Below are positions 2,246 to 62,687 of a stretch of DNA of 64,000 nt, in pieces; the stretch's first letter is position 1; each line of letters starts with the position of its first letter. Source of the stretch: Glaucostegus cemiculus (lineage: Eukaryota); NCBI GenBank assembly GCA_976551045.1, contig CDPCPM010000196.1:4650001-4714000 (forward strand). Reading direction: 5' to 3'. The notes beneath the pieces were generated by a model that was not told the DNA's origin, did no database searches, and saw only the letters and a program-made list of their open reading frames with translations. Position numbers and translations under genes: made by a program.

Positions 2246-5112
2246 ATGGAACTCCCGGTAATCGTATAAGTTGAAAGCATTTACTATCTTATACTGGCCA
2301 TAGTTGGCGTTCCTGCTAAGTTTATTATTATCAGATGTTCACATATTTCGAATGTCACAGTGGCATCTATATCTTCAGCTCAGTGTGAGCACTGCGCCGA
2401 CGATTTCCCACAGCTGGTTGGAATGACGCAATGACAGTATATCTTTGCCAATGCGCTGAATTTACTAATTGCAAGACACAACTCCGTTGAATTTATATTT
2501 ATGTCATGTTGTTTAAATCAGTGTTCAACACAATTTATTCAGGTATTCTTTTGCAGCCATGAAATGTGCGTCCCATTGCTTTCATCAAAAAATTGTAGTT
2601 TAGTTTATGGACAGATTTAGGCATCGTTTTGGAAACTAAACTGCCATACGGGTAAAGATTCGCTCTAAATGAATATATTCAGGAAACTTTTATTGAAATG
2701 TCTTTTTTGTTTTTTGTTCCCTACCCATTTTGAGTCCTGCAAAGGGAGCGTATAGTTTTCGGGTGGAATCCAATTGACGAATAGTTTGTAATTAATTAGC
2801 AGGTAAACATTCTTGCACTAGTTTGTGCGCCTGCCAGTAACCAAGACTCCGTCAGCAGTGTCTTATTTCACCAATGTCTTTTTTTTCTTGTGGGTCTTTG
2901 TGTGGGAAATTCATGGTCCTGTGGACCCAGTGCAATTAATCCATGCTTTCCCATGAAAGAATAATTTCAACTGTGCCAATTATTTCGTTTGGAATTCCAA
3001 AGTAATATCGTCGCGTATTGTTTGAATCTGGGTGAAACAGACGAGAGTTTGGTTATCACCTCAGATGTTCGACATATTCCGTACTAAATTATGTTCCCTA
3101 TAACTATAAACACCCCAAGAATCACACAGTTAAAAATATAAATTTCTTTCTCAACAGAAATTAATGTTACCCTGACTAACCATGGCTATCATCCTGTTAT
3201 CCACTCAGTGGAAATATTTGACCTCTTCTTTCCATGTCCGTTCTGTCCAATAAATCATGCAATTTGCAAACATTTCAGGCCAAGTGTGATTTGTTTCAAG
3301 GTATTTGCATATACAGCGACCCCGCAGAGTCATAATTCTGTTTGAAAAGTGTGCAATCCCCAAAATCTGAGATTTTGTTTGACTTGGATTTGAACGCAAG
3401 TAAGAAAAAGGGATTTAATTTTGCATAAGTCACTGAGACTAGTTGTCAAACAACTTCTTTTTCTTGACTTACTTATGAGGGTAAAATTAGGAGTTGGAGT
3501 TGAAGTCTCGGGCATTCGAGGCTTCAGCTCGTTAGCTCATTTGATTGCAAATGAGCCATTCGATTCGGCAATCCAGTCTAACAACGGCTACATTTCACCT
3601 GTTGGCCATTCAAAATCTATCCACTCAGTCTCAAAAATATTCTGATTTTCTGCGACCACAAGTTTATACGAAGAGAATTCGAAAGATTCACAACCGTCTG
3701 GACGACCATATAAACAACACTTATTGTCTTAAGTGTCGGAGATTGATTTTAAATTGAAAACAAGTTCTGGATTCTCCGCCTAGAGGTAATATACTTTGCA
3801 TATCCACTGTGTCAAGACACTTCGAGCTCATAGATATTGCAAGCAAGACACAGCTGATACTCCTAACTTCTGTGATACAATGCCAGTCCATCCAGGTTTA
3901 ATCATATGATAGTTAAATGTACTCCAATGCATGCCTTGAGTTATATCTAGCTCTGCTAAAATGTCGTTGACGGGAGTTTTTTTTCTGTCCTTCCAACAAC
4001 CACTCCATCCCAGAAATAGCAAATGTTCCGCAATCTTACCTCACCCGACATGGCGAAAAGTAATTGGATGAGAAAATAGTTCAATCATGCGAACAAAATG
4101 CAATTCTTTACATATTTTAATGTAACATGACTGCGAAATGACGTCTTTGTTATCACTTGCTGAATGAAAGCACAGGGATCATATCTGATGCAAATTTCCA
4201 CCCGCCTGCGGTGGAAAATATGAGAGAATATTGAAGGTGGAATCTTCTATTATTTTTAAAAAAATGCGTGATTAGTAAGGACAAAGAAGATAAGAAAAGA
4301 GGAATATCTGGTAAATTTCTGGAGGGTATGGTCTCTTATTCATTTTTGTGTAAAGGATTCTAACAATTCAAAACCAATCCCATAATGTTTTGGCAAATGT
4401 ATTTGTTCCAATCTCACTCGAAATGAATTGATGAGACAATAGAAAATTTCATTCTGATCATCATTCAGTTAAGCAAACAGTACAGCGAAACATTTTGCTC
4501 TATCATCACTGCTGGACGTTGATCGTCCAACATGTTAACGTGTACAGCATGCAAAAGATTTGTATAATTGGTGACTTTATAATCAGAATGGTGGCGCAAT
4601 CTAAAAGTTAAGAATACTTTATTATCCTTGCAAGGAAATTTCAGTCTGTTTAATTCTACTTTGTCTTTTGCAGCGAACATGATGGCAATTCTCATTATCT
4701 GCCGTGGAAATTGCGGTCTCTCAAAATGCATCAACTGGTATCTGCTGTCCATGGCTGTTGCTGACCTAATGGTTCTGATATTTGAAGTTATTCTCTATGT
4801 CAACGATAGTTATTTCCCGTATTCAACAACACTCCAATTTGTCGTGTTAATATGACTCTGCTTTTCATTTCCCTTGATTGTTCAGTCTGGTTAACCGTCG
4901 CGTTTACCTTTGACGGATTAATTGTTATTCGTTGCCAAAAGATACGAGCAAGATATTGCACCGAAAAAAGTGGCTGCTGTGGTAGTTGCCGTGGCATGCC
5001 TGTTAAGCGTTTCACAAAATGCTCTGTCACACTTTATATATGAACCTCGGGAAATAATTGACAATGTAGCTTGGTCCTGCCTTTTAAAGGCTAGTTTCTA
5101 TATATTGCCTAA
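2246..5112 (+). pseudogene. GPR139-like GPCR pseudogene, copy 1 (3'-truncated)
   Basis: Exon 1 (2246-2315) reads MELPVIV*VESIYYLILAIVGVP, with an in-frame TAA and the donor GT mutated to CT. Exon 2 starts at 4674 after ttttgcag (ANMMAILIICRGNCGLSKC..MAVADLMVLIFEVILY), contains frameshifts, and ends abruptly at about 5112 in ECL2. Confidence 0.88.
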
Positions 5113-5695
5113 GATACCACACTAACCAGAATTTAGCACATTTTCTCTTTTCGTTCCTGAATTTGCTGAGTAAATTGAGGGCTCAAATTTCCGAACACGT
5201 CAGCAGAAATTCCGTGTGAAAACGTGATGATTATTTCCCTCCAAATCATCCTCAACAATGCCGACAGTATATTTCTTTCAACAGAGTACAATTCTGAAAC
5301 AAACAGGCAATACAGAAATTATATCTGTCCAGGATGACAGCTCCGTGATCATCACATAAAGAGACCAAGGATTAAAATAAATTTTATGAACGGTGATAAA
5401 TAAATTGCATGTAGTGTGATTTAATGTTCCAATAGACACAATTTCAGCTAAACATTTTCAAGACGGAATAATTTTCAAATATTATTCATCATAAAACAAA
5501 GAAAAAACTTGCCCTTCAGATCTCCTTGAACATTCTCCCCTATCACCTTAAACCTGTGGCCCCTAGATTTAGACTTGCACATCAAAGAAAAAGGACGATC
5601 TGATCTAACTAAGCCCCTCATAGTTTTATAAACCTCCATACGATCATCCTTAGTGCCTTACGTCAAAGTACGATTAACCAGCCTTCTGAATGTTT

Positions 5696-5987
5696 AAGAT
5701 ATCTTTATTTGTACATGTACATCGAAACACACAGTGAAATGCACATTTTGCAAAGAACTTTCGGGGGGCAGCCAACAATTTTCACCACGCTTCCCGTTCC
5801 AACATAGCATGCCCACAACTTACGAACCCGTGCGCCTTTGAATGTGGGAGGGAACCTGAGCACCTTGACGAAACCCACATAGACACGAGGAGAACGATTA
5901 AACTCCTTACAGATATTGCTTGGAATTGCACCTGGGTTGTTGGCGCTGTAATAGTGTTACGCTAACACTACGCTAACGTGCCTGCCC
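5696..5987 (-). mobile_element. tRNA-derived V-type SINE, full length
   Basis: The minus strand has a tRNA-like head (degenerate A/B boxes), a V-SINE-like core and a LINE-derived tail ending ataaagatatctt. Related copies occur at 29506, 34546, 49368 and 63281. Confidence 0.8.
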
Positions 5988-7681
5988 TCTACACGACCGT
6001 GCCTGCCCAATCAACCGTGTCTGCCCGGTATATGTTATTATAACTTGCAATTTATTGCCAAACAAAATTCTGGAAAGTTTGTTCCACACGTTAGTATTAC
6101 TACCACATTCTTCCTTCAGTGCAGCGAACAGAACTGCATAAAATACTGGGTGTGGACTGAACAATGTTTCCTTCAGCTACAGCATGAACACCCATCTCTC
6201 ATGCTATATGTCTGAGACTATGAACGCAAGTATGCCGCGTGCTTCTTCATTGTGTTATCCATCGACATCACCATGTTCGTTGAGGTATGAACATCCACTC
6301 AGGTTTCCTCCTGATATCAACATTCCTGAACTTTTGCCATCTACGCAATACATCATGTTGGTATTTGATATTACAGTGTCTTATTTCACACTAGTCTGAA
6401 TTAAATGCCATCTACTTCGCCTTCCCTCACCAGCCCGATTTTCTAACTGATCCATGTTCCTTGTGTATCCTTTCAAAGCATTATTCTTAGTCCATTTGCC
6501 ACCACTGTTCTTTATCTTTCTTTTTTTCGCATTTGGCATTGAAACCCATTAGGACCAATCGCAAAGAAGAGAATAATATTAATATGATCATGAAATTCTA
6601 CCGCAAATGTGGTTTAAACATTGCAAGCTGTACCGATTTAAGGAGTACATCTATAAATATTTGACCAATGTTTTAAAATGTTTCTAACATTGGGGATGGC
6701 GAGAAAAGCACGATCTATTTCGGGGAATGTGTGATGACAGTAATATTTGTCATTCTCCTTTTCACTGGCAGTTTAACAACAAAATGTGGACGATTGTTAA
6801 CAACACATGTAATTCTTCTCACTCCGTTTGTTCAAATAAATGTAACGAATGCAAATCGTTTCGGAATGCAAATTTTCCTCTTGGGATTTCAATCCGCTCT
6901 GAATAAGGTTTTATTTTGAGAAAAGAAAGCTATAATTTCCACTGCTATTGAAGGCGGCGGCGCTTCTCTCTAAATATGGAACAGCCGGAGACCTTACAAG
7001 TGGAAGCGATTGACATCTTGAAATAGTTGTAATAGCAACTATTGTTGCAATAGTTACTATGCCTTATTAAGCTTTTTATTATCAGATGTTTCCATCTCAG
7101 GAAGGACGCTGTGGCATCCATATCTTCAGTGCAGTATGACGACTGCGCCAACGATGTCCCACAGTAACAATCGACACAATGACATTATCAATTTGACAAT
7201 GCTGAATTTACAAATAACTGTAAGACACGACTCCGCTGACATAAACATGTTTATGTCATGTTTCTGATATCACTGTTCACAATAATATAGACGAATGTTT
7301 CTTTCTGGCCATGTAATTAGGGCCACATTGCTTTCATCAACAATGTTTTGGATTTATGTACGGACAGATTTCACATCGTTTAAGAAGCTGAGTGGCCAAT
7401 CAGGGAAAAGATTATGCACTGGTATTCTAAATGGCTGCGGACAGGAATCATTAGAGAAATGCTTTTCTTTGTTACCTCATCAGGTCCAACGCTTAATCAG
7501 AGGCCTCAAGTCGTCGTGTGGAATTCAATTAAAGAATAAATTTGGAAAATCCAGCAGGCAAATTCGCTTGCAACAGATTTTAACATTGCCAGAAACCAAT
7601 TTTCCGTCTGGCGGATACTATTACGCCAGTTCGGTTTTTTATTAATTGACGTATTGTCTGTGGAAACCCCACTGGAAATAG

Positions 7682-7990
7682 AATTGGTTTATCACTCTCA
7701 CATATACTGGGATACAGTGAAATAGTCTTGCATAGCGTTCATACAGATCAGACCGTGCATTGAGATAGTACAAGAGGAGACGATGCAGTTTACAGAATAA
7801 AGTGTAGCAGCTGCAGAGAAAGTGCAGTGCAGGTAGACCTTGAGACGCAAGGTCATGACATGATTGTGAGGTCACTGGACCATCTTATCATACTACGAAC
7901 CGCTGAATAGTCTTATAACTGTGGGTCGAAACCGACCATGAGCCTGTTGCTTCGTACTTTCAGGGTTTTGTACTTTCTTCTCAATTGACA
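7682..7990 (-). mobile_element. Rex1/Babar-like LINE 3' fragment
   Basis: Begins aattggttttatcactctcacatatactgggatacagtgaa, the antisense of a LINE 3' tail. The remainder resembles the antisense end of a Rex-type RT. Confidence 0.55.
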
Positions 7991-8447
7991 ACGCTCTGGT
8001 CGAACAAAAAGGCACTTCACTTCTCTCTTTAGTGTCTGAGATTGATAGTACGTTGTAAACTAGTTTGTCAAGGCACATCGGCAACGGGAAATAACGCTTT
8101 CACATCCTCTGCGTCAAGACCACTCAGGATTATATATCTTTCAAGCAAGAGATATCCTGTTCTCTAAATAACTGAGATTAAAAGGCTGGTTCATATAGAT
8201 TTTGTCAGACAATACTGAAATAAATCCAAGTTCATGCTGAGAGGTATATGCTGGGTCATCTAAAACGATACTGAGGGGAATTCTTCCCTCCATCCAACCA
8301 ATACTCACAACTCCGAACCGTTAATTTCGTCTCCATGCTTTGCTCACACGGTCACAGCCACACGACATGACATATACAGAAAAAATTAGAATTGAGAATA
8401 CTTGAAGCATGCGTACGCAATGCAATTCGTGATTAACGTTAATGTAA

Positions 8448-11400
8448 CATAGAAGCATAGAACTATAGAACATTACAGCACAATAAATGGGCATTCGGTC
8501 CTGCCAGTCTGCCGAAACATTATTCCGTTACTCCCATTCACCTGCACCAACTCCTTAACCCTCCAGACTTCTCTCACCCATGTATCTATCCCAGTTATTC
8601 ACCTACAACTTAAGAGTGAGCCGCAATTACCACGTCAGATGGAAGCTCGTTCCACACTCTCATCACTCTCTGAATGAAGACGTTCCCCCTAATATTCCCC
8701 TTTTCACCGTAAAGCAATATTATATCTTACTTATCTCTCCTAATCTTGGTGGAAAGAGCCTGCTCGCATTTGCTCTGTCCATAGCCCTCACAGCCGCATT
8801 CAAATTGCCCCTCAGTTCTTCAACGCTCTTGGGAATAAAGTCCTACCGTGCTCAATCTTTCCCTGTAATCAACTACGGAAGACGCGGTAACATTCTAGTA
8901 AATTTTATTTGCACTCTTTCAATCTTACTGATACACTTCCTATAATTAGGTGACGAGAACTACACACAATACTCAAAATATGGTCTCACCAATTTCTTAT
9001 ACAACCTCGTCATAACAGGCCAACTCCTATACTCAATATTTTGATTTCTGAATGTCAGTATGCCAAAAGCCTTCTTTACACCCTTGCCTAATTGTGACGC
9101 CACTTTCTGGAAATTATGTATCTGAACTCCTAAATCACTTTGTTTCTCCGCGCTCCTCAGTGCCCTACCATTTACTGTGTATGTTCTGCCTTGATATGTT
9201 GTTCCAAAATGCAGCACCTGTCTGATTAAAATTCCACCTGACATTTTCCAACACATTTTTCCAGTTGGTCTATATCACTCTGCAAGCTTTGAAATCTTCC
9301 TCGCTCTCCACACTGCTTCCAATCTTAGTATCATCACCAAACTTGCTGATCCAATTTACCATATTATTATCTGGGGCACTGATACAGACAACAAACCACA
9401 ATGGGCGCAGAACAGATCCCTGAGGCACACCACTAGTCACAGGCCTCCAATCCGAGAAACAATCATTCACTACCACTCTCTGTCTTCCCCACAAAGTCAA
9501 TTTGGAATCCAGTTTACAACCTCTCCATGGATACCGACTTCCTGAACCCTCTGAACTAACCTCCCATGTGGGACCTTTTGAATGTACCTACTGAAGTCCG
9601 TGTAGACAACATCCACAGCCTTTTCTTCATATACTTTCTTTGTAACCTTATCGAAAAACTCTACAATATTCGTTAAACAGGGTCCGCTGCACACAAAGCC
9701 ATTGTGACGATCCTCAATCAGCCCTTGGCTGTATAAATACTTGTATATTCGATCTCTCCGAACATCTTTTAATTATTTACATACAACTGATGTCATGTTC
9801 ACCGGCCTGTAATTACCTGGTTTTCTTATAGAGCCTTTTTAAAACAACGGAACAACATGAGCTACCCTCCAGTCCTCTGGAACCGCAATCGCGGTTAAGG
9901 ACGTTTTAAATATATCTCCCAGGGCCCCTGCAATTTCCACACTCTCTCAAGGTCCAAGAAAATTTCATGTCAGGCCCGGGGGATTTATCTACCTTTCTTC
10001 GCTGTAAAGCAGAAAACATTTCCTCCTCGTTATTATCGATATGCTCCATCACACCACTGATATGTTTCCTTACATTCCATATATACTGTGCCAGTTTTCT
10101 GAGTAAATGCTGATGCAAAACAACTGCATAAGATTTCCCCTACCTCCTTAGGCTCCACACATCGACGACCACTATGATCTTCAGTCGGGCCCATTGTGTC
10201 TATTATTATCGTTCTACTCTTAATGTGAAAACCCTTCCAGTTTACCTTCACATTTTCTGCCAAAGCAAACTCATGTCTTCTTTTTGCCTTCCTGATTTCC
10301 TTCTTTAATATATTTCTTACATTTTTAATACTCTTCAAGGACCTCATTTGTTTCTAGTTTCCTCTACCTGCTGTACACCTCTCTCATTTTCTGAACCAGA
10401 CCGCCACTAACCCTTGAAAACAAAGGTTCTCTACGCCTATTAACTTTGCCTTGAATCACGGCAGGAACATGTAAACCCTGCACTCTCAAAATTTCTCCTT
10501 TGTAGGCCTTCCACTTACTGAACACATCCTTACCAGAAAATAGCTTATCCCAATCCACTCTTCCTCGTTCCTTTCTCATTTCCACGAAATTGGCCTTTCT
10601 CCAAATTAGAACCTCAGCTCGAGGACCAGACCTATCCCTATCCATAATTAACTTGAAACTAATAACATAATGGTCATTGGACACAAAACTGTTCACCTAC
10701 ACATACTTCTGTCAGCTGACTTTCCTGGTTCCCTAATAGGATATCAAGAATTGCATTCTCTCTCGTTGGTAACTCTCTATACTGATTTTAAAAGACTATC
10801 CTGAACACATCTGACAAACTCCAAGCCATCCAGCTCTTTTACAGTGCTGGAGTCCCAGACAATAAGTGGAAAGTTAAAACCCCTACTATTACAAGCTTCT
10901 GTTTCATACATCGGTCTGCGATCTCTCCACAGATTTGTTCCTCCTCTTTTCTCTGACTATTGGCCGGTCGATAATACAATAATATTCGGGTGGTCACACC
11001 TATCCCGTTCCTCAGCTCCATCCATATGCCTTCTGTAGATGAGCATTCCGGGCTGTCCTGTCTACCCACAGCTCTGATATTCTTCCTGACTAGTAAGGCC
11101 ACCCCTCCCCCTTTCATCCACCTCTCTCTCTCTCACGTCTCAACAACGGAACCCTGGAATATTAAGCTGACAATCCTGCCCCTCCTGCAACCAGGTCTCA
11201 CTAATAGCAATAATGTAGTAATCCCACGTGCTAATCCACGACCTAAACTCATCTGCTTTACCGACAATACTCCTTCAATTGAAATAGATGCAGCTGAGAA
11301 CACTTCTGTCACGGACAAACCTTGCTTTCTGTCTATACATGAAGTCCCAAAACTGTATTCTTATTGTCCATGGGAACGCCACAGGGATGCTCTGCTCTTT

Positions 11401-11630
11401 CTTTCTCAACCCTCTTCCCTCACCTGACAGTCTCCCAGCTACCTGCCTCATGACTTCTCGGGGTGACTATCTCCCTGAAACTCCAGTCTATTTCTGCCTC
11501 TGCCTCACGTATAAGCCAAAGTTCATCCAGCTCCTGATCTAGTTTCATAACTCAGTTTGTCAGAAGCTGCAGCTGGATGCACCTTTTACATATGCAGTCA
11601 TCAGGGACAAGTGTCCCTGATGATGCCCCA
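8448..11630 (-). mobile_element. CR1-clade LINE, near full length with internal deletions (ORF1 N-terminus, endonuclease, RT)
   Basis: Minus-strand ORFs give endonuclease motifs (KGGGVALLVR, YYRPANS) and RT motifs (CLTNIVEFFD, VDVVYTDFS, GVPQGSVL, KFGDDTKIG). An ORF1 zinc-finger/leucine-zipper remnant (DDCICKRCIQLQLL) lies at about 11540-11620, and the 3' (ttctatg/ttctata) repeats are at about 8448-8470. Confidence 0.92.
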
Positions 11631-12705
11631 GAATGCTAAAATTTAAAACAACAGATTTTTTTTTTTATCACTGCAGGTTTTACAGTCAGAATAAATGCCA
11701 ATTGAAAAATGTAAGAACATTGTCATAGATATTTTGAATTCATTTCACCATTTACATACTTGCACTATTTTGCATGTGCAGCTGACTTAATGGCAATTCT
11801 CATTCTCTGTCTTGGAAAATGCGATCTCAAAATCATTACCCGCTACTTGCTGTACATTGCAATGGATGACCTAATGCTTCTGTCATTTTAAGTAATTCTC
11901 TATAAGATTAACGATAGTTACTTCCCATATTCATTCCTGAACTGCACTCCAATCCGTCGTATAAACACGACTGTGCTATTTATTTCCCTTGATTGCTCAG
12001 TCTCGTTAACCGTGGAGTATACCTTTTACCGATTCGTTGCTATTCGTTCCCAAAGGTTACATTCAGGATATTGCACCAAGTAAAGAGCTGCTGTAGTAGT
12101 GGCTGTGGTATGCCTCTTCAGTGTTTCGTACAATTCTCCACAATACTTAATGAATGAACATCCGGAAATAATTGACAAAATACCTTGCTCCTCCGTTGCT
12201 GCATTCAGCTTCCATACTTTGCGTATATGAGGAACAATTTTGTGACTGGATACAATTTTAACTCCGATTTTGCCGTTTGTTTTGATTGTCATGGTCAATG
12301 GTCTGATAATTGTGCACAATTTACGAGCCAATATAGCGAAATAACGGACTCCGAGGAGGAGATATCTTTCAGAATGTAATGAACCAGAGAAGGCAAATCA
12401 AAGACAATCAATTAACTATGAATGTTATTTTCGTCTGTTCCTAATCCTTGGAGTTCACCTATACCCAATTTTCAGGAGTGAATAACAACGTTCCGTTCCC
12501 CAATGCTGACCTATCAGGTTACGTGGTGTAGTGTCTATGATATTGCACAAATACTTATTTATTTCATGTCCCAGAGAAAATTTAGAAATGATCTGAAGAA
12601 GGGAATAAAACATCGGCAGGAAATCTTTGCTTATATAATAAAATAAAGAAAGAATATTCGCTTCAGCAGATTAAAATATGGAACGTCGATATTCAGATGG
12701 ATATA

Positions 12706-24389: not shown

Positions 24390-24393
24390 AAAT

Positions 24394-38787: not shown

Positions 38788-39089
38788 TGTGGACGGTAAT
38801 TGGCATTTGTTACTGGTCCGTGTAATTTGCAAATCACCATTTTTCAAAAGTGAGTTCCAGCGACTCAATCACCGTTGCTGAACAATGAGCTTTTCTGCTG
38901 ATCAGTTTCAGTTCTTAAACAAAATCCTTTATGCAGTGAACCAGATCAAAAACAGATATAAACTGAAGAATGTCATTAACGTCCACCGGAAATCTTTATT
39001 AACAAAACCAAAAAATGTGAAGAAAGGTTAATGTTGAAACGTTCAGTAATTTAAATATGCATACCGGGATCTTCAAAGGAAATCTAAAC

Positions 39090-48000: not shown

Positions 48001-48697
48001 TCCTTATGAACTATGAACTTCCATCCAAGTTTCCGTTAAACATTAACACGTCTGAACCCCTTAATAATTAATCTATATTGTTTCCATTCAATGTCCCAAA
48101 GAGCAATACCTCACACTGATCTGTATTACATCTATCAACTACCTCCGCCTTCGCCAACTTTCTAACCGATCCATGCCCACTCTACCATTTCAAGAGAGTC
48201 TTCGCTACATAGGTTCCACTAATTGTAATTACCATTTCTTTTGATTTCCCTTCAACACTGAAAATCCTCAAGAATAATAGCAAATAGTAAAAAAAAAATA
48301 AAGTTGCACACGAACAGTACTGTTAGAAGTAGGATTTTGTACAGCCAATGATTGTATATTCTCCAGTACAAGCTGTATATCAATAATCTATATTCTTTAT
48401 ATAAGATTTTTCTGCCTTGGCTGATGGGGTGTAAATAACGATGCATTAACGGAATGTGTGAGGACAGTGATATTTGATGTAGTTTAATTTTCACTGATAA
48501 ATTAATCTCAAAATGTCAAAATTGGTAACAATAAAGGTGTCGCTTCCTGTTCTGTTTATTCTAAATATAGTTAATGAGTATTTCGCAATGTTCATGTGCC
48601 ACTTGTGTTTTCAATCCAATATAAGCAAGATTTTGCTGTGAGGATAAGATAACATTGTTTCTATTATCCTCGAAGTCAGCGGCGCTTCTCTCAGAAT

Positions 48698-51600: not shown

Positions 51601-51771
51601 TTCACCATTGCATAACAGTCTGGATATATGCTGCAAAGTTTGATTTCTTGCACAAATACCTTCATTTATGCAGCCTCCCAGTCCAAATTCAGAAATGAAT
51701 TAAAGAAGGAAATTAAACGTCCGCTCGAGCTGTTTGGTAATATAATAAGGAAAATAAAGATTAATTTCTAA
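48698..51771 (+). pseudogene. GPR139-like GPCR, copy 6: frame intact but with two nonsense codons
   Basis: Exon 1 is 48698-48767 (ATG, gtaag donor) and exon 2 is 50849-51771 (ttttgcag acceptor). The spliced frame is 330 codons plus stop, interrupted by TGA at 51469-51471 (CGA in copies 4 and 5) and TAA at 51613-51615 (GAA in copies 4 and 5). Confidence 0.94.
49368..49642 (-). mobile_element. V-type tRNA SINE in the intron of copy 6 (internally deleted)
   Basis: Positional paralog of 34546-34865. Confidence 0.75.
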
Positions 51772-52364
51772 ATAAGATAAAACATAAACATCTATCGATG
51801 TTCAGGTGTTATGTAATTTATGTGGATGCTGAAAATTTCAAAGGAAATTTGATCTGTTCTGTTTGCCGAAGGTGTGCAGAATTGCAGCAGATAGTGCCTT
51901 CCTGTCCGGTCATTTCACGTCAATACGCGTCGAGGCTACTATTCTCACATATATAATGGTCATGACATTTTAATACTCTGGCTTTGTTGATGTTCGGTTT
52001 TCAAGAGTAAAGAGAAGTGTGCATTAGAAATTTTACGTATCTCCTCTCATCGCATCACTGTCGCCTGCCTGTCCTCGCAATTATCCTGCTGTACCTCTTC
52101 TTTCACCCCTTTTACATTCAGCGTGATGTTATTTAAATAAACAAAGGCAAAGGTGTGGATGCTTTTTGGCCTAATTAGGAAATTTTCCGACTGGTTCTTG
52201 ATATAAACCCCCTTCTTTGGATAAAAAAATGCATCCTTATTATATTGTTACCTTAAAATGTCAGTGCATGGAAACTTAATCTCTCAGATTCCAGTGAAAA
52301 TATGTAACTGTTTGTCCAGGAATGATGGAGGCCATGTCATTTAATGCTGAGATATATGATAAAA

Positions 52365-53055
52365 TGAATGGCATCTGGAGGAACTTAGCTTATGAAGCGG
52401 CATCTGTGGATGTGAGAGCCTTCACAGATTGACGCTGCGGGCCGTGAGTCTGCATCACGACTGAGAATGTGATCGAACATTACCAATAGAATGTGTAACG
52501 GAAGTAGTGAGAGAAGGTTAGTAAGTGCAGCCATGTCAGATGGAGACGAAGAGGCAGACGAATCCAGACGTGTCGGTGGTGGTTGACGGTAGAGGCTGAT
52601 GCGTGATAGGGAAATACAGATTTATGAAATGGCTGCAGGAGCCGAATGGGGGTGAGGGGCTGAGGACAGTAGTGTTTGAGGCTGGAAGGTGATAAGTTGA
52701 ACACGAAATTTGTGGGATGAAGGGCAGATCGAAAAAGATGGTGCAAGGAATAGGAAGGACAGTCCCAGAAGAGCAAAAGTGGGTGGTTAGTGGAGTGGGC
52801 AACAGGCAGATGGAAATGAGAAAAAAAGAAGAACTGTTGTCCTGTCGGAGTGGGAAAGGAAAGGAAGATGTCTGGGTTACCTTAAGTTGGAAATTTCTGT
52901 GTTAATGCCATTGGGTTGGAAGTTCCTCAAGAATACTATCAGGTGATGTTTGTCAGTTTACGTTTTGCTTCACCGTGGCAGTGTAGAAGGCAAAGGACAG
53001 GCTGGTCAGTGCTTGAATGGTAAAGAGAGTTGAAGTGACATGCAACCTGAAGCTA
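52365..53055 (-). mobile_element. Penelope-like 3' fragment (unit B)
   Basis: Paralog of 37575-38255. Confidence 0.72.
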
Positions 53056-53879
53056 GACCAATGATTAAAGCTAAGTTTTGGAACGGCAGTAAATACCTTA
53101 GGTGCAGTTGGCGTTAATGTCCTGTTGCTTACCAGGAAAGAAAGAAATATTTGCCCCTCAGATCACTTTGAACTTCCTCCCCTTGGCTTCTAATTTTAGA
53201 CACGCACATACAAAGAAAGAGAGTATCTACGATGCTTTTTGGAGCTGCAACATGGCCTCAAAACTATTATGTTCAATGTTTTAGACTATGAGGGAAATCA
53301 TGCCGAGGCCTTTCTCATTCGCCATACGCTTAGTTCGCCATTTTCATGGAGCAATGAACTTCCACCCACATTGTATTTGTCAATGGAATGTGGAGCGGTC
53401 ACAGAGGAGGAACCAAGTTTGGGAATAATAATGATCCAGAGTTGGAGAATCAAATGACATAAATTACTCTCCTTCTTTCTATATTAGCTTCTTTCGTAAA
53501 ATAAGATTAAGATTTGTTTATTAGTTACGTGTCCATCAACAACGCAGTGAAACGATTCATTTGAGTAGAGTGTTCCGCTGTGGATGGAAATTTGTATTTT
53601 TTACTGATCCGTGCAATTTACAAATCACCGATTTTCAAAAGTGAGTTCCAGCGACCCGACCACCATTGCTGAACAATGCTGTTATGCGTCAAAAGGTTTC
53701 AGTTCTTGAACAAAAACCTTTGCTGCAGTGTCCATGCTCAAATGCAGATATAAACTCAGAAGGTAATTAACGTCTACCGGATCGCTTTATTAACAAAAAA
53801 TGTTCAGAAAGATTATTGTTGAAATGTTCAGTAATTTACATATAAATACCGGAATATTCAAAGGAAATCTGAACTAACA

Positions 53880-54295
53880 CAGAAAGAACAAGATGCTGGA
53901 AGCACTCAGTGGACCATGCATCATATCATTCTCCGCCCTCCTGCATGCTATAAGTTCAAACGAAAACTCGAAGAACATCACCTCCTTTTTGCCTTGGGAC
54001 CTTATAACCTAATGACATGAACATCGAATTCCCCCACTTTAAGAAACCGAAAACAACCCCTGCACAATCCACCTTTTATTTCCTTTTCCATCCTGTCACT
54101 CTTTTTTCACCTCACCGATCTTTTATCTCCAGTCTCTCCAAGAGTCACCTCCCTCTCCATCTATCACCCATCTCCTGAGATATATGTTCTCCCTTCTCCC
54201 TTTCATCTGCCTTTCACTCTATTTCTCACTTGCAACTGCCTATTACGACATTGTGCCCACCCCTCATCCGCTCTTCTGTTCATCTGTCACTGCTC
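53880..54295 (+). mobile_element. Penelope-like 3' fragment, plus strand (unit B)
   Basis: KRKLEEHHLLFCLGTL*PNDMNIEFP at about 53958-54035. Confidence 0.75.
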
Positions 54296-55121
54296 TGCGG
54301 GTTTGTGTCGAGCGACTCCATCGGCATCTCAAATCGGCCTTGATGGTGCAGCTCAAGGGCCCAAACTGAGCATCCACAAAGGCCCGAAGGAAGATTTGTA
54401 GACCTCCTAGGAGCAGTTAGTCCACAGCGCTGCCCTTACGTTCCCAAGCAATTTCGTACTGTGGTCCCGCGTTCCCGAAGAAACACTGGCAGAGGTGCTG
54501 ATAACGCTGCGGGACAAGTGAGGGACCCTGTCACCGACCCGACCTCCAGGCATGGTACCACGCCACCCATCGCCCCTAAAGACCTCCGGGACTGTAAGTA
54601 TGCTGTTATTTTCTGGAGACTGAACAAATAGTCACCTCTACAGCCACCGTACGAAGGACCCTTCAAAGTGACCGGGCACAATGGATCTACGTGTGTCGTG
54701 GAAGTGGGTGGCTGGGAAGAGCATTTTACAGTAGACCGGGTCAGACCGGTACACCTGGACATTGAGCAGCCAGTGAGGCTACCCATACGCCGCCGGCGCG
54801 GACGGCCACCTCAGTCAGCCACACGTATTCGGGGCTTCTCTTGACTTTTCTGGGGGTCGTGTGTGTGGTGTGGCGGGCCGCACATGCGGAACTCGAACCG
54901 CTATCGGGCGCCCCGGGCGCATACATGGAAGTTCATCTTGAACTATCTCGCGGGGGCGAACATTCCGGGGACATTCAGACGTGGTCAGCGTCCGAGCGGA
55001 GTCGGGGGCTTGTGGGTAGAGCTCTTAGGCGCAATTTTGTGTGGTTGAAGTCAAGTTTATGGAGCTCTTGCTCTCTCGATCTCTGCATCGTTTCTCCCGG
55101 AGCGCGCTGATATCGGCTACA
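54296..55121 (+). mobile_element. Gypsy integrase C-terminus plus 3' LTR (unit B paralog)
   Basis: VERLHRHLKSALMVQLKGPN and LQPPYEGPFKV. The LTR spans about 54869-55121 and ends GGCTACA, with the same 3' junction (agag(g/a)atggattcga) as at 41912. Confidence 0.88.
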
Positions 55122-56230
55122 AGAGAATGGATTCGAAGTTTAAAGAGATAAGTCCCGTGGGGCGGGGACAGGCGAGTATTCTGAGTCTGACACGATAATT
55201 CTGCATGACGTTTTTGGGCAAAAGACAGAAGCGGGCTGTGCGGGATTGTGTCGCTATCATCTTGGAAGCTGTCGGGAGGAGATCGCCTGATGTGAGGAGA
55301 TCTGTAACGGTTGCGTACATTGCCTTGCTGTTTAATAGTGAGCATATTGTCCATGGGTGTAGGAGGAAGCTGTCAAGAGCTGCCTGCCCTCTTCCTCTGC
55401 AAGTTGGAGATGGTTTGCAAGAGCACAACCGCTTCATATTTGTCTGTCGCATTGATAATGAGGTCAGAATTGATTTTGTAATGACTGGAGTGATGCACGT
55501 TGAGAGCGGGTGATATTAGAGTGGGTGAGGTGAGTGGAGATATCAGGAAGGATGCTGGGTCTTTGGAAACTGGAAATGGTAAGGTCTGCAGAGTATCAAC
55601 GGCCACAAGGGAGTTTTCAAGAGGAAAGGACGAGTTGGAATCGCAAGGCCGTGTTGTCACGGGAGATGCAGGTGCTGGGTGGACTCCTTGCCAAAAATAA
55701 AAGGCACAGAGCCGAAAGGGATATCATATCGAACAGGACTCAATGAGTTGCGTGAGTATCAGTGAGAAAGTGAGATCTCTGCTGAGAAAACAGAAACGCT
55801 CAGCGTCATAGATGTGCAGGTCGGGGAAATATTGAGATCTGCCATAAATTGGCAATGAGAAAGAGGGATCCGTGGATAATTGGTCAGAAGCGAGGTGCAA
55901 GACTCTAAGGGGTCGACAGTGATCTTGGTACAGATCTTGGCTCTGGAACTTGAGGATGATGTGGCTGCGTTAGATTGCTGGTATCTGCAGCATGGTGGCA
56001 GTCTGGTGTTGTGTCGAGTATCGGGGTCTGGGCCTGCGCAAGTGTGCCCCTTCAGAAATCCAACGTTTTGAACCGCTGAATCCATGATCATAAGCCCAAG
56101 AACTCCTTTCTTGAGTAATTTGCTTCAGGTATAACCTTCTGTAATCGTCTTTGGGAATCCCATAATCATTATGCCTTTTGATTAGACACCACTTATTCTC
56201 ATCAATATAACACGAGAAATTAAAAAAAAA
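55122..56230 (-). mobile_element. Penelope-like element 5' region (unit B/C boundary)
   Basis: Paralog of 41913-43030. Confidence 0.72.
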
Positions 56231-56959
56231 GATAGTTTGTGGCATCAATTCACTTTGTAGATGACCAGCTTTGTTTTAGTATTTGCCTCTTTGTTTACGT
56301 TTTGCTTTGAATATATACTCTGGTCTTCTGGGTATTTCTGATACCACACTAACCAAATTTCAGCCACTATTTTTTTTTTTGTTTTTCATGTTGTCTGGGT
56401 AAAGTTCCCAAATTGCAGAACAGATTAATGTGTACTGCAAACGAAGATTACTTACATCGAAGTCATCCAAAGCAATAACGAGATAATTTTCTTTTCCCAG
56501 AAGGGCAATTCTGAACACCAAACGAATATCGAAGTTTATCGACAATTCTTTTCGCATCATATTAGTCAGACAATGTTTAAACTAATATTTAGGAACGGCA
56601 TTAAATGTTTTACAGGCTGTGTGATTCAAGGTTCCATTAAAACAATTAGAATATAGCCTTTTCAGAATCTTAGTACACTGTTGAACATAAAGCAAAGATA
56701 GAAGCTATGATTTTAATACAAGGCCAAAGCGGCAAAAGAAAGTATTCGCGTCATTCAACAGCTTTGCAAGCTCTCTTACGTTTCGTGGTTTCCGATTGGA
56801 ATACAGGCTGAGAATCAACATATTAAGAAGGATTGAATTCTGAAAACTTGCTTGGCTCACCTCGTCCATTGTTCGAAATATGTCTGTGACCCTGGTTCAG
56901 TCAGAAGCCTTTATTTTAGCCTTTGACAATCTCTATGCTGCACTCTAGATTTTAGTGAT

Positions 56960-58335
56960 TGATTAATGTTCTGTCATAATTTAAGAAAGGATACAAATAA
57001 AAGCCGTGGAACGACATAGCAGTGAGTCCAACGTCAGAGTTCAGTAATCCGTTTGGAGAGATTCCGGAAGGCCACATTTACATGGATCTCTAATGGCAAG
57101 AACTGATTAGGGAGAGACAGCACGCCTTTGGGAAACACTGTCTGAGGAATTATTGACCAAAGTTATAGACGAGGGACGTGAGGTCGACGCTATCTACATT
57201 ATGTTAGCAAGATCTCTGTCAGTGTATCGCGTGTTAGGCCAGTCCAAAAAGTTAAATCGCATGATGTCCAGTGTGTAGAAGTCTAATGGATACATGATTG
57301 GTTTGACGACAGAAGACGAAATGTTGTGGAGAGTAGTTATTTACAGACTGGAGGACTGACCAGCGGTGTGCCGCAGGAATCGGCGCTGGTTTTATGTTGT
57401 TTTATCATTTATATGAACGATTTGTATGAGAATGCAGGTGCCATGACTTGAAGGTCCGCGGGTGACACTGACGTTGGTGGTACAGCGAAGAGTGAAAAAC
57501 ATTATCTGAAACTACAACGCGATTTTCATACCGTTGTCCGTGTGCTGAGGAATGGCAGATGGAGTTTAGTTCAATGAATAGAAGTTGTTTCTTTTTGGTA
57601 ATACAAACTAAGGTAAGTCTTACAGTCTAAATAGGGGTTCCTTGTGGAGTATTGCAGAATACGTTGCAACAGAGGTGGAGAAGTTACTGAAGAAGATGCT
57701 TGTAACGCTGGATTTTGTTGATCAAATTACAGAATACAAGAGTTGGAACCTAAGGTTGTAGCTACAGAAGACCTTCGTAAGGCTGCATTTGTAGTGGTCT
57801 GCACAGTTCAGTTTGCCCAAATTTTTCAAGGGTGTCATAGATCAGGGAATAGTGCAAAAGAAGATCTGCAATAAATGTTATTGGTAATTTTGGGCTTGAG
57901 TTCTGAGAAGAGGCAGGATAAGTTATGTTTTTTTTTCCCACTCTAGCCGAGAATGCTGCCGGATGATTCAATAGATATCGATTCAATTATGAGGGATACA
58001 GAGAAGGTAACCAGCCAAAAGCATTCTGCCCGGTGTAGGGAAGTCCAAAACAAGAGGGCATTAGTTTAAATCAAGGGGAAGAAATGCTCTAAAAGGGTCA
58101 AAATCTGAAAACATTATTTTTCACAAATGTGATGAGCAGGTGGATCGAGCCACCAGAATAAGTGATAGAGGCGGGTACCATGGCAGTCAGACAATTGCCT
58201 AGATCGGAAAGGTTCATACGGATACAGTCTAAACGCGATCAATTGGCACGAGCTCAGTTAGGGACTTGGAACTGCACGGCAGACTGGGTCGAAAGACCAA
58301 TTTTCTGTCCTGTGTAGCCCAATGACACTGTGGCT
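56960..58335 (+). mobile_element. Degenerate CR1 LINE (unit C)
   Basis: Paralog of 43760-45060 (GVPQES, MNDLYENAG, WQMEF). Confidence 0.8.
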
Positions 58336-59533
58336 TGCTTTCACAGAAGGTGAAGTAAACCCTGGGAACGAATTGCATGGAGATCTGACAGAAAAGCTGA
58401 AACTATGCGAGGACTTTGATAACGAAATGAAGAAAATGATTTCTAGTCATTGGCCTGTGGGTGGAGGAGGTGCAGAGAGTTTAAATTCATCATAAATGAA
58501 GTAAATGTTCAGAGATATTCGGGCAAATAATCTCAAATTTCTTTAGATATTCACACATTCATGTGTGGCCCGCACATAGAAAAGGTGAAAATATTTTTGT
58601 CTGATATATTTTTGAACGAACAGTTCTCCCAGCCGGATTCTTTTCTTTTTATTTTTAGCCTGGAAAGAACAGGTGATTCCACCACCAAACAGCGTAAGAT
58701 AGTCCAAGGTTTCAGCATCCAGCTTGAAACATGAATCTTTGCTGATTCATAAAGATGTAGGTTGCTGCAATGCCAGAAGGTCAGGCGCTCGAAGAAGGTT
58801 CATGAACTTGAAGTTAAAATACGCTCTCTGTGAATTTTCATTTAACATGGCGGCAGTACTATTGATTCCACCGCAGAACTCTGAGCACCAGTAAGGTCCG
58901 ATGTTGAATGTCATTGCCTACCTCAGAATATATCAGAAAAATACGCGGCACTTGAATTCCACTCACAATGGACTGTTTTCAGATTGGTGATGTGTGCACA
59001 GAATGATATTGATCTCATTCAGTGGTACAGATTGTTAACTTAACCCATATATCTCAGTTCGCTTCTTTTCCTCTTCCGTTCCCCACAAAGGAAAGCCCGT
59101 CAGAGTGGTTGAACAGTGAGTTGTGCGCTTGCTTCGAGGCTGTATGTTGCAGCTGATGGCTGAACATTTTAGAACTTGCAAGCTTGACAACTGTTTTTAT
59201 TGGACTTGGCAAGTGGACAGAATTGATCAGGATCAATCCAGATCTACAACTAATTAACTCAACCAACTGGATGCAGTGCCCTGCAGATGCAGTGCACTAG
59301 CACTGGACGGGAACAGCGCTGTCGTGTGGCGAATTGGGCAGAGCCCTGATGGCCATCATCAGTGCCTCCATTCGAAACGCAGAAAAAATGATGATAACAT
59401 GCGACACCAACATCACTGATCAATCGAAATATTCACTGTAAGTAACTTCTTTATTGGAATGCCAATTATTGAAGGAAAGGACTGTGATTTTTTTTTTAAT
59501 CTGCCGGATTAAACGCTGTTTCAAACTTTTGGG

Positions 59534-59575
59534 TTGAGCGGGAGAGTGGCAGAGTGAGAGAGTGAATGAGAGAGT

Positions 59576-59612
<37 letters not shown>
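59534..59612. repeat. (GA)n/(GAGT)n microsatellite
   Basis: gagagtgagtgagagagagagagagagagagagagagagg. Only a short gagaga is present at the homologous sites in units A and B. Confidence 0.9.
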
Positions 59613-59613
<1 letters not shown>

Positions 59614-60332
59614 ATTCATTTTGTGGGATATATGGTTGTTTGACATTTATATCAGTGGGAGAAGCTCATGCGAGATACCAATTATAAATAAACATAATAA
59701 GTGAAATAAACATATTAAGTCGCAATGAAAAACGACAGACTTCCAGGAATCTTCCCTGTGTCAGGTGACACAAGTGCAGAACGAAGCGCAGTCAACATTC
59801 CAGTTCGCTGGCCTTCATTAAAATGAAATTCTGTTATGTCGATGCACGAGGAGATTTTGAAATGATCGGAACGCAAATTACATCATAAATCCCATTCAGA
59901 TGAATCTCAGATTCTGAAATGTGACAAATTTAATTCGAAAGTCATGAAACCATTTGAAGAATAGAAAATATGCATGTATAATGGACTGATTTTCTCCAGC
60001 TCTCAGTAGACTGACATACGCTGTGCTTCTTCTTTGTTGTAAATAAATGCAATTAATGCAGTAAGTATTCAGATATATACACAATATTGAATAGATAAGT
60101 TAAATGTAATGGTGCGGCAAGTAACTGGAAATGGTTAGAACATAAAGTGTACGGTCAGTTTAGTGAACTCAACTGGAGTTACAAGAGCCGCCCTCACTGA
60201 AAGCTGCAAACACCACAAGGCGACACGGCAAGAAAGACATCACCTGGTATGAGCTGCGGATTTACTGTCATTTTTCACAAGCCCCATGGAAAAAGTCAGA
60301 ATGTACTCAAAAACTAAAATCCACTGTGATCC

Positions 60333-60449
60333 AAGATAAGATAAGATCCTTATTAGTCACATGTACATCGAAACACACAGTGACATATATCTTTTGCGTA
60401 GAGTGTTCTGGAGGGCAGCCGCAAGTGTCGCCACACTTCCGGCGCCAAC
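60333..60449 (-). mobile_element. 5'-truncated SINE (specific to unit C)
   Basis: A tail of about 115 nt inserted between actgtga and ctgagga, which are near-contiguous at about 31670 and 46966. Confidence 0.82.
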
Positions 60450-62509
60450 TGAGGATGTCCACAACTTTCAATGTTGCTGTACTAAATCAGTTTCTCGCTC
60501 TTGAGATAGCGACTGAATGGTGAATTAATCAGACCATTCTACACGTTTAATTGAAGTGGATGGTAAAAAATTATGTGCTGAAAAATACGTAAAAAATTGT
60601 GAATATATCTGGTGCTTCCACCGGTGAAGGAAAATGAATGTTGAGCTGGTGTATATAGTTCCAATAACGTCCTGGATGGATTCGGCCTTATGTTTTATTG
60701 TAAATGCACTTATCTAGGCAAGTGGAGTGTGTCTATCATACTCGTCCCTTATGCCTTGTCGAAGGTAGAAAGAGTTTGGATTGTCAGCAGTGCGTGAATG
60801 CCTGCAGGATTCCAGGCATCTGGTATCCATGTGAAAGCACAATATTTATATGGCTAATCATCATGTACCTGGTCAAATTTGAGTGTCAGGATGCTCACAG
60901 TTGCATTCTTTGTGATAACAACGGCAATGAATTTCAAAGGTAGGATTTCCAATTCTTCTCATTTTCAGATCGTCACTTGCAGGCAATAATGTGGCTCCAA
61001 CATTACTTCTTAGATACGAGTCTATGACTGAATGTTGTACAGGTTTATAGACTGCTTCCTTTGTTGAAAAGTTTCAGAGGAATTGACTTCGCTGGATCTT
61101 CATCTATCTTCATGATACTTGAAGCAGATGATCAGGAGTTCGGCTAAATTAACTCTTGAGATAAGCTGTTGTTGGGGTCTTTGATATCCGACGCAACTAT
61201 GGTGCACCGTAGGTCAGAGGCCTTCGTTTATAAACAACATTAAATTATCACTGATTGTCATGAGATCACCATGCCAGTTTTGGATCAATTTTAGCAAGTT
61301 GCTGTCAATCCCACCGGGTTCTACCATTTTAAGATTCATCCATCTGCATATTTGCCAAAGGCCTTATGGAAGACAACGTATATTACATCATCTGCACCGC
61401 CTCATCAACGTATTTCATTGTCACTTCATAACAAATCCTGTCCCTCCGTAATTTTTGAGAAAAAAACACTTGATTTTCCGTCAAACTGTACCACATTTGC
61501 TATCCTCCAATCATCTGGCATGTCACTTCGTGACTAGAACAAATCTGTTGGCCTCTGTGAGTACTTCATGGTTCTCCACCGTTACTCTCACTCGTTACCA
61601 GCAGCCCTGTAGATGCTCTGGATACCTCTCAGGCCTCAGTGTTCCAATGAGAATAAAACATCCTATCCAATGTTTCCTAATATCTAAACCCATCCATTCC
61701 AGGCAACATCGTGTTGCATCTTTTCTACCCTACCCTTGTTACCACTTCCGCCCTGTGGCATTGCGACCAGAATTTCAGGAGATACCCCAAGTGAGACCAG
61801 AAAAAAGTCTTCTACAGCTGAAACTTTACATCCTAACTCATGTGCTCAGTGCCTCGGATGAAGAAAGCAAGCATGCACAGTGCTTCTTCACCACCACAAC
61901 AGTCTGCATCGCCATTCCTAATGAATTATGAACTTCCATCCAAGTTTTCGTTATACATTAACACTTCTGAATCTCTTACCATGTACTCCATGGGTTATGT
62001 TTATACTCGATGCCCCGAAGTGCATTACTTCATAATGATCTGCATTACCTCTATCACCTCCCACCGCCTTCACCGACTTTCGAAATGGTCCATGCTTGTC
62101 TGTACCATTTCAATGGCTTCTTTGCTACATAGGTTCCACTAATTGCAATTACTATTTCCTTTGATTCCCCTTCTACTTTGAAAATCCTCTAGAATAATCG
62201 AAAATAGGAAAAAAGATAAAGGTGCACCAGAACAGTACTGTTAAAAGTAGGATTTTGTACCGCCAATGTTTCTATTTGCTTCATTGCAAACTGTAAATAT
62301 ATAATATATCTTCTCTATGTAACCGAAGTTTTTTTGCCTTTGCGAAAATTTAAAAAAAACGTGTTTATGTGAATGCGTGATGACAGTGATATTTGATGTA
62401 ATTTACTCTTCACTGATAAATAAATCCAAAAATGTCAATAATTGGGAACAATAAGGTTGTCGCTTCCTGTTCTGTTCCTACTAAATATAGTTGATAAAAG
62501 TTTCGCAAT

Positions 62510-62617
62510 GTCCATGTGCCACTTGGGTTTTCAATCCAATATAAATAAGATCTTACTGTCAGAAGAAGAGAACATCGTTTCTATTATCCTCGAAGTTAGC
62601 GGCGCTTCTCTTAGAAC
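62510..62617 (+). promoter_or_regulatory. Putative proximal promoter of GPCR copy 7
   Basis: catgtgccacttggg followed by TATAAATA at 62540-62547, 78 nt before the ATG. Confidence 0.55.
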
Positions 62618-62687
62618 ATGGAACAGCCGGTAATCATACAAGTGAAGACCATTTATTACCCTGTTCTTGCAATCGTTGGCGTTCCTG
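62618..62687 (+). CDS. GPR139-like GPCR copy 7, coding exon 1 (exon 2 lies beyond the window)
   Basis: MEQPVIIQVKTIYYPVLAIVGVP-G|gtaag, intact. Downstream intron sequence is colinear with copies 5 and 6 up to the window end. Confidence 0.85.

What the first reader, a model, noticed from the sequence alone, without database searches (positions are those of the whole stretch)
2246..62687. Birth-and-death tandem array of GPR139-like receptors: candidate unrecognised chemosensory family
Seen: seven same-strand two-exon GPCR copies in 64 kb, with an extracellular N-terminus of only about 10 residues, YYPxLAIVGVPAN in TM1, DRF instead of DRY, NTFIY instead of NPxxY, and heavy pseudogenisation. Established: mammalian GPR139 and GPR142 are single-copy sensors of aromatic amino acids. 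GPR139 has YYSLLLCLGLPAN and NFFLY and, from recollection, an intron in the same Ala codon. Cartilaginous fishes have very few classical OR genes. Inference: tandem expansion with rapid gene death is the pattern of OR/TAAR/V2R clusters, so this may be a lineage-specific amino-acid or small-molecule sensing repertoire. Its function is not shown by the sequence.
Basis: partly seen in the sequence, partly recalled or inferred. Interest (0 to 1): 0.8.

Follow-up and report, generated by a model that had tools for sequence, protein, structure and literature searches.

The report
Thousands of orphan receptors in elasmobranch
This shark-or-ray genome holds thousands of copies of an unstudied cell-surface receptor whose ligand-facing side is diversifying under selection, which suggests a large, overlooked sensing system in animals thought to have few smell receptors.

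Summary
The window has seven same-strand two-exon class A GPCR copies: six broken, one intact. It lies in an array of over 4 Mb. Two independent 33-base motifs match 5,581 and 6,618 places in this elasmobranch assembly, controls 0. All 60 sampled hits were family exons and 25-32 were open: roughly 2,300-3,000 open exon-2 frames before removing near-identical copies, which are common. The copies are not GPR139/142 paralogs. Both genes exist separately, a joint clade is rejected (p=0.002) and the amino-acid-binding residues are lost. They descend from an orphan sister lineage that is low-copy in bony vertebrates. The window's clade is under purifying selection (dN/dS 0.25). A larger clade shows positive selection with 15 of 15 sites on the outward face. 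Promoters keep a TATA box and an O/E-like site. Best reading: a diversifying sensor repertoire, probably chemosensory (0.5), possibly immune (0.25). Expression and ligands are untested. Ten literature searches found no description.

The parts
2246..5110 (+). Copy A, pseudogene (exon 1 2246-2315; exon 2 4674 to about 5110, truncated)
6976..12650 (+). Copy B, pseudogene (degraded exon 1 from 6976; exon 2 11782 to about 12650)
14681..15735 (+). Copy C, pseudogene (exon 1 without ATG; only the 3' part of exon 2, 15435-15735)
18842..22218 (+). Copy D, pseudogene (exon 1 18842-18911 intact; exon 2 21316-22218 with a frameshift and 3 stops)
33879..36979 (+). Copy E, pseudogene (start codon lost; exon 2 36061-36979 with a frameshift and 1 stop)
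38430..38997 (+). Extra degraded exon-2 3' remnant
48698..51771 (+). Copy F, pseudogene (exon 1 48698-48767; exon 2 50849-51771 with 2 stops)
   Evidence: Pfam 7tm_1 E=7.6e-14
53358..53763 (+). Extra degraded exon-2 3' remnant, duplicated with the E/F unit
62520..62546 (+). Copy G proximal promoter: O/E-like element (62520-62527) and TATA box (62540-62546), conserved at the same spacing in most neighbouring copies
62618..62687 (+). Copy G exon 1 of an intact 329-aa receptor; intron about 2.68 kb; exon 2 at G000:C196:4715366-4716285, beyond the window
32413..63991 (+). Tandem segmental units of about 14.8 kb carrying E, F and G with shared repeat remnants (74-81% DNA identity)

Best explanation
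An orphan chordate GPCR lineage, sister to GPR139/GPR142 and low-copy in bony vertebrates, was amplified in sharks and rays by unequal crossing-over and segmental duplication into arrays of hundreds to thousands of two-exon genes under birth-and-death evolution (shown for this genome; inferred for other species from annotation). Intact members keep a conserved G-protein side and vary the extracellular loops and upper pocket, so different paralogs most likely bind different external ligands, probably peptides or other larger polar molecules (inferred). They are most likely expressed in sensory cells (olfactory epithelium, or skin, gill, gut or ganglion chemosensory cells) as a chemoreceptor repertoire separate from OR, TAAR, V1R and V2R (inferred, untested). 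The window is part of an older, purifying-selected array; a younger-looking clade elsewhere in the genome is the actively diversifying one.
For: Scale: 5,581 and 6,618 motif matches, controls 0; 60 of 60 sampled hits are family exons; 110 of the 150 listed best protein hits lie on the window's contig between 1.45 and 5.57 Mb. Range: 114 of 120 and 120 of 120 top homologs are named elasmobranch proteins, 18 species in all. Function: dN/dS 0.25 (34 sequences of the window's array) and 0.51 (20 sequences of the other clade). Diversification: M8 vs M8a 2dL=145, omega 3.5, 15 of 15 sites outward-facing against 115 of 277 columns (p=1e-6). It holds in two subclades separately (2dL 160 and 36; sites include 3.29, 3.32, 3.33, 6.51, 6.58, 7.32, 7.35), and 10 null simulations gave at most 6.8. 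Pairwise loop dN/dS 1.37 against 0.30 for inner helix halves. [quoted passage not shown] Precedent: invertebrate relatives carry the Srw chemoreceptor domain.
Against: No expression or ligand data. The window's own clade shows no positive selection (2dL=0.45). In catshark nearly all olfactory neurons are Go/TRPC2-positive and V2Rs already supply sparse olfactory expression (PMC10116579). The 50 most specific brain-plus-olfactory genes include no GPCR (PMC11979771), though V2Rs are absent from that list too. Selection on extracellular loops also fits immune or pathogen-driven receptors. The O/E consensus was recalled, not retrieved; the promoters share ancestry; the element also reads as an E-box in most copies; EBF also acts in B cells; only 3 of 5 TATA-bearing promoters outside the array had it (of 13 loci scanned). 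Gene conversion can inflate M8, and synonymous divergence is higher on the outward side (0.26 vs 0.155). Near-identical copies are common: 25 of 40 sampled loci had a partner of at least 96.8%.
Confidence: 0.5

Rival explanations
1. Immune sensor repertoire: leukocyte or epithelial GPCRs that detect microbial or damage peptides, in the manner of formyl-peptide receptors or MRGPRs, or receptors in an arms race with pathogens.
For: Selected sites cluster in extracellular loops and the vestibule; very recent amplification (36 copies at 96-99% of one exon); cartilaginous fishes are reported to lack MAS1-related receptors (PMC8455134); C/EBP-like and ETS-like words appear upstream of the window's copies (identification recalled, not tested).
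Against: Those words are confined to closely related copies; deep pocket positions are selected too; thousands of copies exceed the immune GPCR families I recall.
Confidence: 0.25
2. Ampliconic reproductive family expressed in testis, sperm or oviduct and amplified by sexual selection or drive.
For: Blocks at 99.9-100% identity on 3-4 contigs, a near-identical duplicate about 975 kb apart on C196, rapid surface evolution.
Against: Subfamilies are shared with sharks and skates at 64-72% identity and spread over at least 41 contigs totalling 190 Mb; no sex-linkage data.
Confidence: 0.1
3. A modest functional family inflated by neutral segmental duplication and by unpurged haplotypes in a contig-level assembly.
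For: About half of the motif-bearing copies are broken; heavy near-identity; copies lie among LINE and LTR remnants.
Against: GPR139, GPR142 and two orphan relatives each appear once; sets of 3-4 near-identical copies exceed two haplotypes; intact copies are diverse (median 52-64% amino-acid identity within clades); dN/dS is well below 1 inside and above 1 outside; 1,905 clusters at 90% identity in public data.
Confidence: 0.1
4. GPR139-type sensors of aromatic amino acids.
For: GPR139 is the nearest solved structure by profile; W6.48 is invariant and 3.33 is mostly F or Y.
Against: N7.39 is Y or F in 34 of 34 array sequences, R6.51 is absent in 54 of 54, H5.42 is absent in 34 of 34 (present in 10 of 20 of the other clade); these residues form the Trp/Phe site (PMC5430874); a joint clade is rejected.
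Confidence: 0.05

Closest known systems
GPR139 / GPR142
   Same: Best solved-structure match by profile; same phase-1 acceptor in the TM1 Ala codon; W6.48; no Pro at 7.50.
   Different: Only 21-26% identical; both genes exist separately and once in this genome; the family has C3.25, lacks P6.50 in 53 of 54 and R6.51 in 54 of 54; thousands of copies.
Low-copy orphan receptors of coelacanth, fishes, salamanders and amphioxus (probably the GPR210A/GPR210B sets of Rinne et al. 2019, PMC6504862)
   Same: The family nests among them; the salamander gene is its sister at 100/100; two such genes occur once each in this genome.
   Different: They are low-copy and most keep R or K at 6.51. Identity with GPR210A/B is inferred from the taxon pattern; accessions could not be matched.
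OR, TAAR, V1R and V2R chemoreceptor arrays
   Same: Tandem birth-and-death arrays, many pseudogenes, compact genes, O/E-like site plus TATA box.
   Different: Separate origin (no 7tm_4 match). Cartilaginous fishes have 20-62 such genes in all and the largest complete OR counts are about 2,300-2,400 (PMC10869828); this family's open exon-2 estimate is of that order before deduplication.
MRGPRs and formyl-peptide receptors (recalled)
   Same: Class A peptide-type receptors expanded in single lineages, with selection on extracellular parts, used by nociceptors, mast cells, leukocytes or vomeronasal neurons.
   Different: No special sequence relationship seen; far fewer copies; MAS1 relatives reported absent from cartilaginous fishes.
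Nematode srw and other invertebrate FMRFamide/MIP-receptor-like expansions
   Same: Same wider receptor group: protostome W/Y/Famide receptors are sister to GPR139/142 (PMC8557429); invertebrate relatives hit Pfam Srw.
   Different: Independent vertebrate expansion; family members themselves do not hit Srw.

Membership tests
Class A (rhodopsin-like) GPCR | 7tm_1 domain and seven-helix fold | tested here: met
   Pfam 7tm_1 in copy G (E=3e-18) and in 42 of 42 homologs; model of a 68%-identical relative has 7 long helices plus helix 8, pLDDT 77.6, and matches peptide GPCR structures at TM about 0.7
GPR139/GPR142 subfamily | One clade with GPR139 and GPR142, excluding other orphan lineages | tested here: not met
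   AU p=0.002 on 35 sequences; trees
GPR139/GPR142 subfamily | Trp/Phe site F3.33, H5.42, W6.48, R6.51, N7.39 | tested here: not met
   W kept in 54 of 54; R in 0 of 54; N in 0 of 54
GPR139/GPR142 subfamily | Phase-1 intron in the TM1 Ala codon | tested here: met
   Acceptor side checked for the genome's own GPR139; its exon 1 and GPR142's intron were not examined
Wider GPR139 / GPR210-like / W-Y-Famide receptor group | Nearest named relatives are GPR139/142 and FMRFamide or sex-peptide-receptor-like proteins | tested here: inconclusive
   Profile ranks GPR139 first; group against outgroup 100/99, but the outgroup lacked TRH, NMU and ghrelin receptors; GPR139/142 as sister only 96/74 and 83/51; Foldseek did not rank GPR139 first (rank 23)
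Vertebrate chemosensory receptor family | Large tandem birth-and-death repertoire with diversified ligand side | tested here: met
Vertebrate chemosensory receptor family | Sparse expression in sensory neurons | not testable with these tools
   No RNA run could be laid on the gene; catshark expression supplement unreadable
Vertebrate chemosensory receptor family | Activation by external ligands | not testable with these tools
   Needs a receptor assay
Odorant receptors (OR) | 7tm_4 domain | tested here: not met
   No 7tm_4 hit in copy G or 42 homologs

The most novel reading that the evidence does not exclude
Sharks and rays have a further, undescribed olfactory receptor family co-opted from an orphan peptide-receptor lineage. 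In this genome it reaches a thousand or more functional genes, rivalling the largest mammalian OR repertoires, and is expressed one or a few per neuron under O/E control. That would overturn the view that cartilaginous fishes smell with a few dozen receptors.
Probability: 0.3. Interest if true: 0.95.

Novelty: new variant of a known kind. Interest (0 to 1): 0.83.

Why it matters
Published surveys count 20-62 olfactory-type receptors in cartilaginous fishes and describe a paucity of GPCRs, despite their reputation for smell. A family of hundreds to thousands of intact, diversifying GPCRs has been sitting under the automatic label 'probable GPR139'. Whatever tissue uses it, it is one of the largest receptor families seen in a vertebrate assembly; the 41 sampled contigs that carry it total 190 Mb, 6.7% of the assembly. 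Existing catshark, skate and bamboo shark RNA-seq could decide between smell, immunity and reproduction at once.

Tried and rejected
RNA runs for copy G: no RNA holder listed, so no reads were laid; this is not evidence either way. Catshark tissue-expression supplement not readable; bioRxiv supplements of 10.1101/2025.06.08.657570 are closed; either may list these genes. Marra et al. 2019 is not held. Ten literature searches found no description of the expansion; the library lacks most subscription journals. Earlier scan findings: none. Single-sequence PDB search could not place the family (muscarinic M4 31.7 bits, GPR139 29); only the profile did. Foldseek did not discriminate among peptide GPCRs. 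A motif carried by a transposon was rejected: 60 of 60 sampled hits were GPCR exons, and 200 kb of C1 held 10 copies among ordinary repeat remnants with no shared large unit. A whole diploid assembly was rejected because four single-copy relatives appear once. A first promoter scan over 500 bases showed no clear O/E (4 vs 1.6 expected, p=0.09) or homeodomain enrichment; only the later TATA-anchored test, chosen after seeing the alignment, was positive. dN/dS by pocket list did not separate pocket from non-pocket helix sites (0.19 vs 0.23 and 0.46 vs 0.42). An OR family search gave one strong hit, a lower bound. A second batch of 20 array loci could not be fetched, so the array selection test rests on 34 sequences chosen among best-scoring hits. 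No complex prediction was run.
Full report
Observation. Translated and DNA self-searches find seven + strand copies of a two-exon GPCR gene and two extra exon-2 remnants. Exon 1 is 70 bases and ends inside the Ala codon of the TM1 P-A-N motif. Copies A to F are broken by stops, frameshifts, a lost start, a lost donor or deletions. Copy G is intact: its exon 2 lies 2.68 kb downstream, just outside the window, giving 329 aa with a 7tm_1 domain. E, F and G sit in repeated units of about 14.8 kb at 74-81% identity that include repeat remnants, which points to unequal crossing-over. In 260 kb around the window, 4 of 18 copies have a full open exon 2.

Scale. The window is G000:C196:4.65-4.71 Mb of a 2.85 Gb, 1,511-contig assembly. 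Of the 150 best protein hits listed (a cap), 110 lie on C196 between 1.45 and 5.57 Mb. An 11-codon TM3 motif matches 5,581 places and an independent TM7 motif 6,618, with reversed-pattern controls of 0. In the first 5.1 Mb of contig C1, 87 TM3 and 100 TM7 hits overlap in 52, a union of 135; scaling this one contig gives about 8,800 loci, or about 11,000 by capture-recapture, fragments included. All 20 sampled C1 hits and all 40 hits from 40 other contigs were family exons. A strict test passed 7 of 20 and 18 of 40; an acceptor plus an open frame of at least 285 codons was seen in 32 of 60. That gives roughly 2,300-3,000 open exon-2 frames (my arithmetic on 25-32 of 60; interval 1,700-3,700). 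An exon 1 was found for only 13 of the 25 strict cases within the fetched flanks, so whole-gene integrity is not shown for all.

Redundancy. Of the 40-contig sample, 25 had a partner at 96.8% or more, with sets of 3-4 contigs at 99.9-100%. That sample was drawn on a rare codon variant (40 of 73 hits) and so favours close kin. One C1 exon has 36 copies at 96-99% among 40 scored. C196 carries near-identical copies about 975 kb apart. Unpurged haplotypes could halve the count, but four single-copy relatives appear once and sets of more than two copies need real recent duplication. In 200 kb of C1 there are 10 copies in both orientations among LINE and LTR remnants.

Range. The top homologs of copy G (114 of 120 named) and of a C1 copy (120 of 120) are shark, ray and skate proteins, mostly auto-named 'probable G-protein coupled receptor 139', from 18 species, with 1,325 and 1,905 clusters passing E 0.001, a total that includes more distant GPCRs. 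No chimaera protein was among those listed. The window's clade groups with a skate protein, so the host is an elasmobranch, probably a batoid.

Affinity. A 42-sequence profile ranks human GPR139 first among solved structures, 65.7 bits against 48.3; a single sequence could not place it, nor could Foldseek. The genome has its own GPR139 and GPR142, once each, and GPR139's exon starts in the same Ala codon. The profile search of cluster representatives reached low-copy relatives in salamanders, coelacanth, teleosts, bichirs and amphioxus, two of which have single orthologs here. In trees of 58 and 35 sequences (subsets of 93 assembled; near-duplicates and some outgroups left out for run time) the family plus the salamander gene form a clade (100/100, 100/99), nested among those orphans, then amphioxus. 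GPR139/142 are sister to all of these with weak support (96/74, 83/51). A clade of the family with GPR139/142 alone is rejected (p=0.002). Rinne et al. (PMC6504862; passages and one supplement searched) named such low-copy sets GPR210A/B; the match is inferred, not checked by accession. Thiel et al. (PMC8557429; passages) place GPR139/142 as sister to protostome W/Y/Famide peptide receptors.

Pocket. Nohr et al. (PMC5430874; abstract and passages) assign the Trp/Phe site to F3.33, H5.43, W6.48, N7.38/39 and R6.51. In 54 intact exons W6.48 is invariant, N7.39 and R6.51 never occur, P6.50 occurs once, and C3.25, absent from GPR139, is invariant (numbering set by me on the alignment). The same amino-acid sensing is therefore unlikely. 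A model of a full-length relative shows seven helices with helix 1 starting at residue 5.

Selection. After removing copies above 97% identity, 34 exons of the window's array give dN/dS 0.25 and 20 exons from other contigs 0.51. With my own M8/M8a code the array shows no positive selection (2dL 0.45). The other clade shows 2dL 145, omega 3.5, and 15 of 15 sites in extracellular loops or the tops of TM2, TM6 and TM7, against 115 of 277 columns (p=1e-6). The signal stays when columns near gaps are dropped and in two subclades separately, and 10 null simulations reached at most 6.8. Eight disjoint close pairs give dN/dS 1.37 in loops (p=0.026) and 0.30 in inner helix halves. Recombination was not screened, synonymous divergence is uneven along the gene, and a predefined pocket list did not stand out.

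Promoter. Thirteen array promoters share a TATA-like box about 77 bases upstream of the ATG and a conserved element just before it. A near-match to the O/E (EBF) palindrome lies there in 9 of the 12 with a detected TATA box, against 1 of 139 background windows, and in 3 of 5 TATA-bearing promoters among 13 loci from the other clade. The consensus is recalled, the test was chosen after seeing the alignment, the copies are related, and an E-box reading is possible. Young et al. (PMC3247239; passages) report O/E and TATA enrichment in mouse OR promoters. This is a lead only.

Mechanism. Shown: a very large, partly intact GPCR family with a conserved signalling side and, in one clade, a diversifying ligand side. 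Inferred: paralogs bind different external ligands, likely peptides or larger polar molecules given the loop and vestibule sites and the ancestry, and are used by sensory cells (0.5). Rivals: immune sensing (0.25), reproductive amplicon (0.1), neutral or artefactual inflation (0.1), GPR139-type amino-acid sensing (0.05).

Context and novelty. Policarpo et al. (PMC10869828; passages) count 20-62 olfactory-type receptors in cartilaginous fishes and at most about 2,400 complete ORs in any vertebrate. Syed et al. (PMC10116579; abstract and passages) find the shark nose V2R-dominated. Tan et al. (PMC8455134; passages) describe a paucity of GPCRs and no MAS1 relatives. The passages I read of a batoid tandem-cluster survey (10.1101/2025.06.08.657570), the catshark genome paper (PMC11979771), PMC10468316 and PMC12294341 do not describe this family; their supplements were not seen and may list it. 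PMC3963977 (abstract) and PMC11682238 (passages) cover the srw precedent. Ten searches found no report of the expansion. The genes exist in public annotation under a misleading name. The kind of system is known; this family, its origin and its scale appear undescribed in the library searched.

Noticed in passing
window 23561-26089: A 2.5-kb element with perfect 544-bp terminal inverted repeats, TG...CA ends and matching 4-base flanks, holding a 341-aa gag-like ORF (24535-25560; the gag label is my recollection) with no Pfam hit. LTR-like ends in inverted orientation are odd.
   Followed up: partly
window 39696-41100: LTR-retrotransposon remnant with an RT_RNaseH_2 hit, inserted in unit E only.
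   Followed up: no
G000:C196 about 2.08-2.77 Mb and 3.06-3.73 Mb: Near-identical copies about 975 kb apart (97.9-100% in four locus pairs): a recent segmental duplication or an assembly artefact.
   Followed up: partly
L061 (C233:9998639-9999610) and L062 (C46:20060578-20061465): Two single-copy orphan GPCRs orthologous to coelacanth, teleost and bichir genes: unnamed vertebrate receptor subtypes beside GPR139/142.
   Followed up: partly
L104, L115, L133, L143, L147, L152 upstream of exon 2: One subclade has an exon 1 of about 60 codons giving a longer, variable extracellular N-terminus, and mostly no TATA box nearby.
   Followed up: partly
L168 (G000:C1 about 2.05 Mb): Retrovirus-like gag and pol remnants among the receptor copies (label by inspection).
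   Followed up: no
G000:C196:4743000-4810000: A gap of 67 kb without any receptor copy inside the array.
   Followed up: no
exon-2 sets: Third-position GC is 0.45 in the window's array and 0.62 in the diversifying clade.
   Followed up: no
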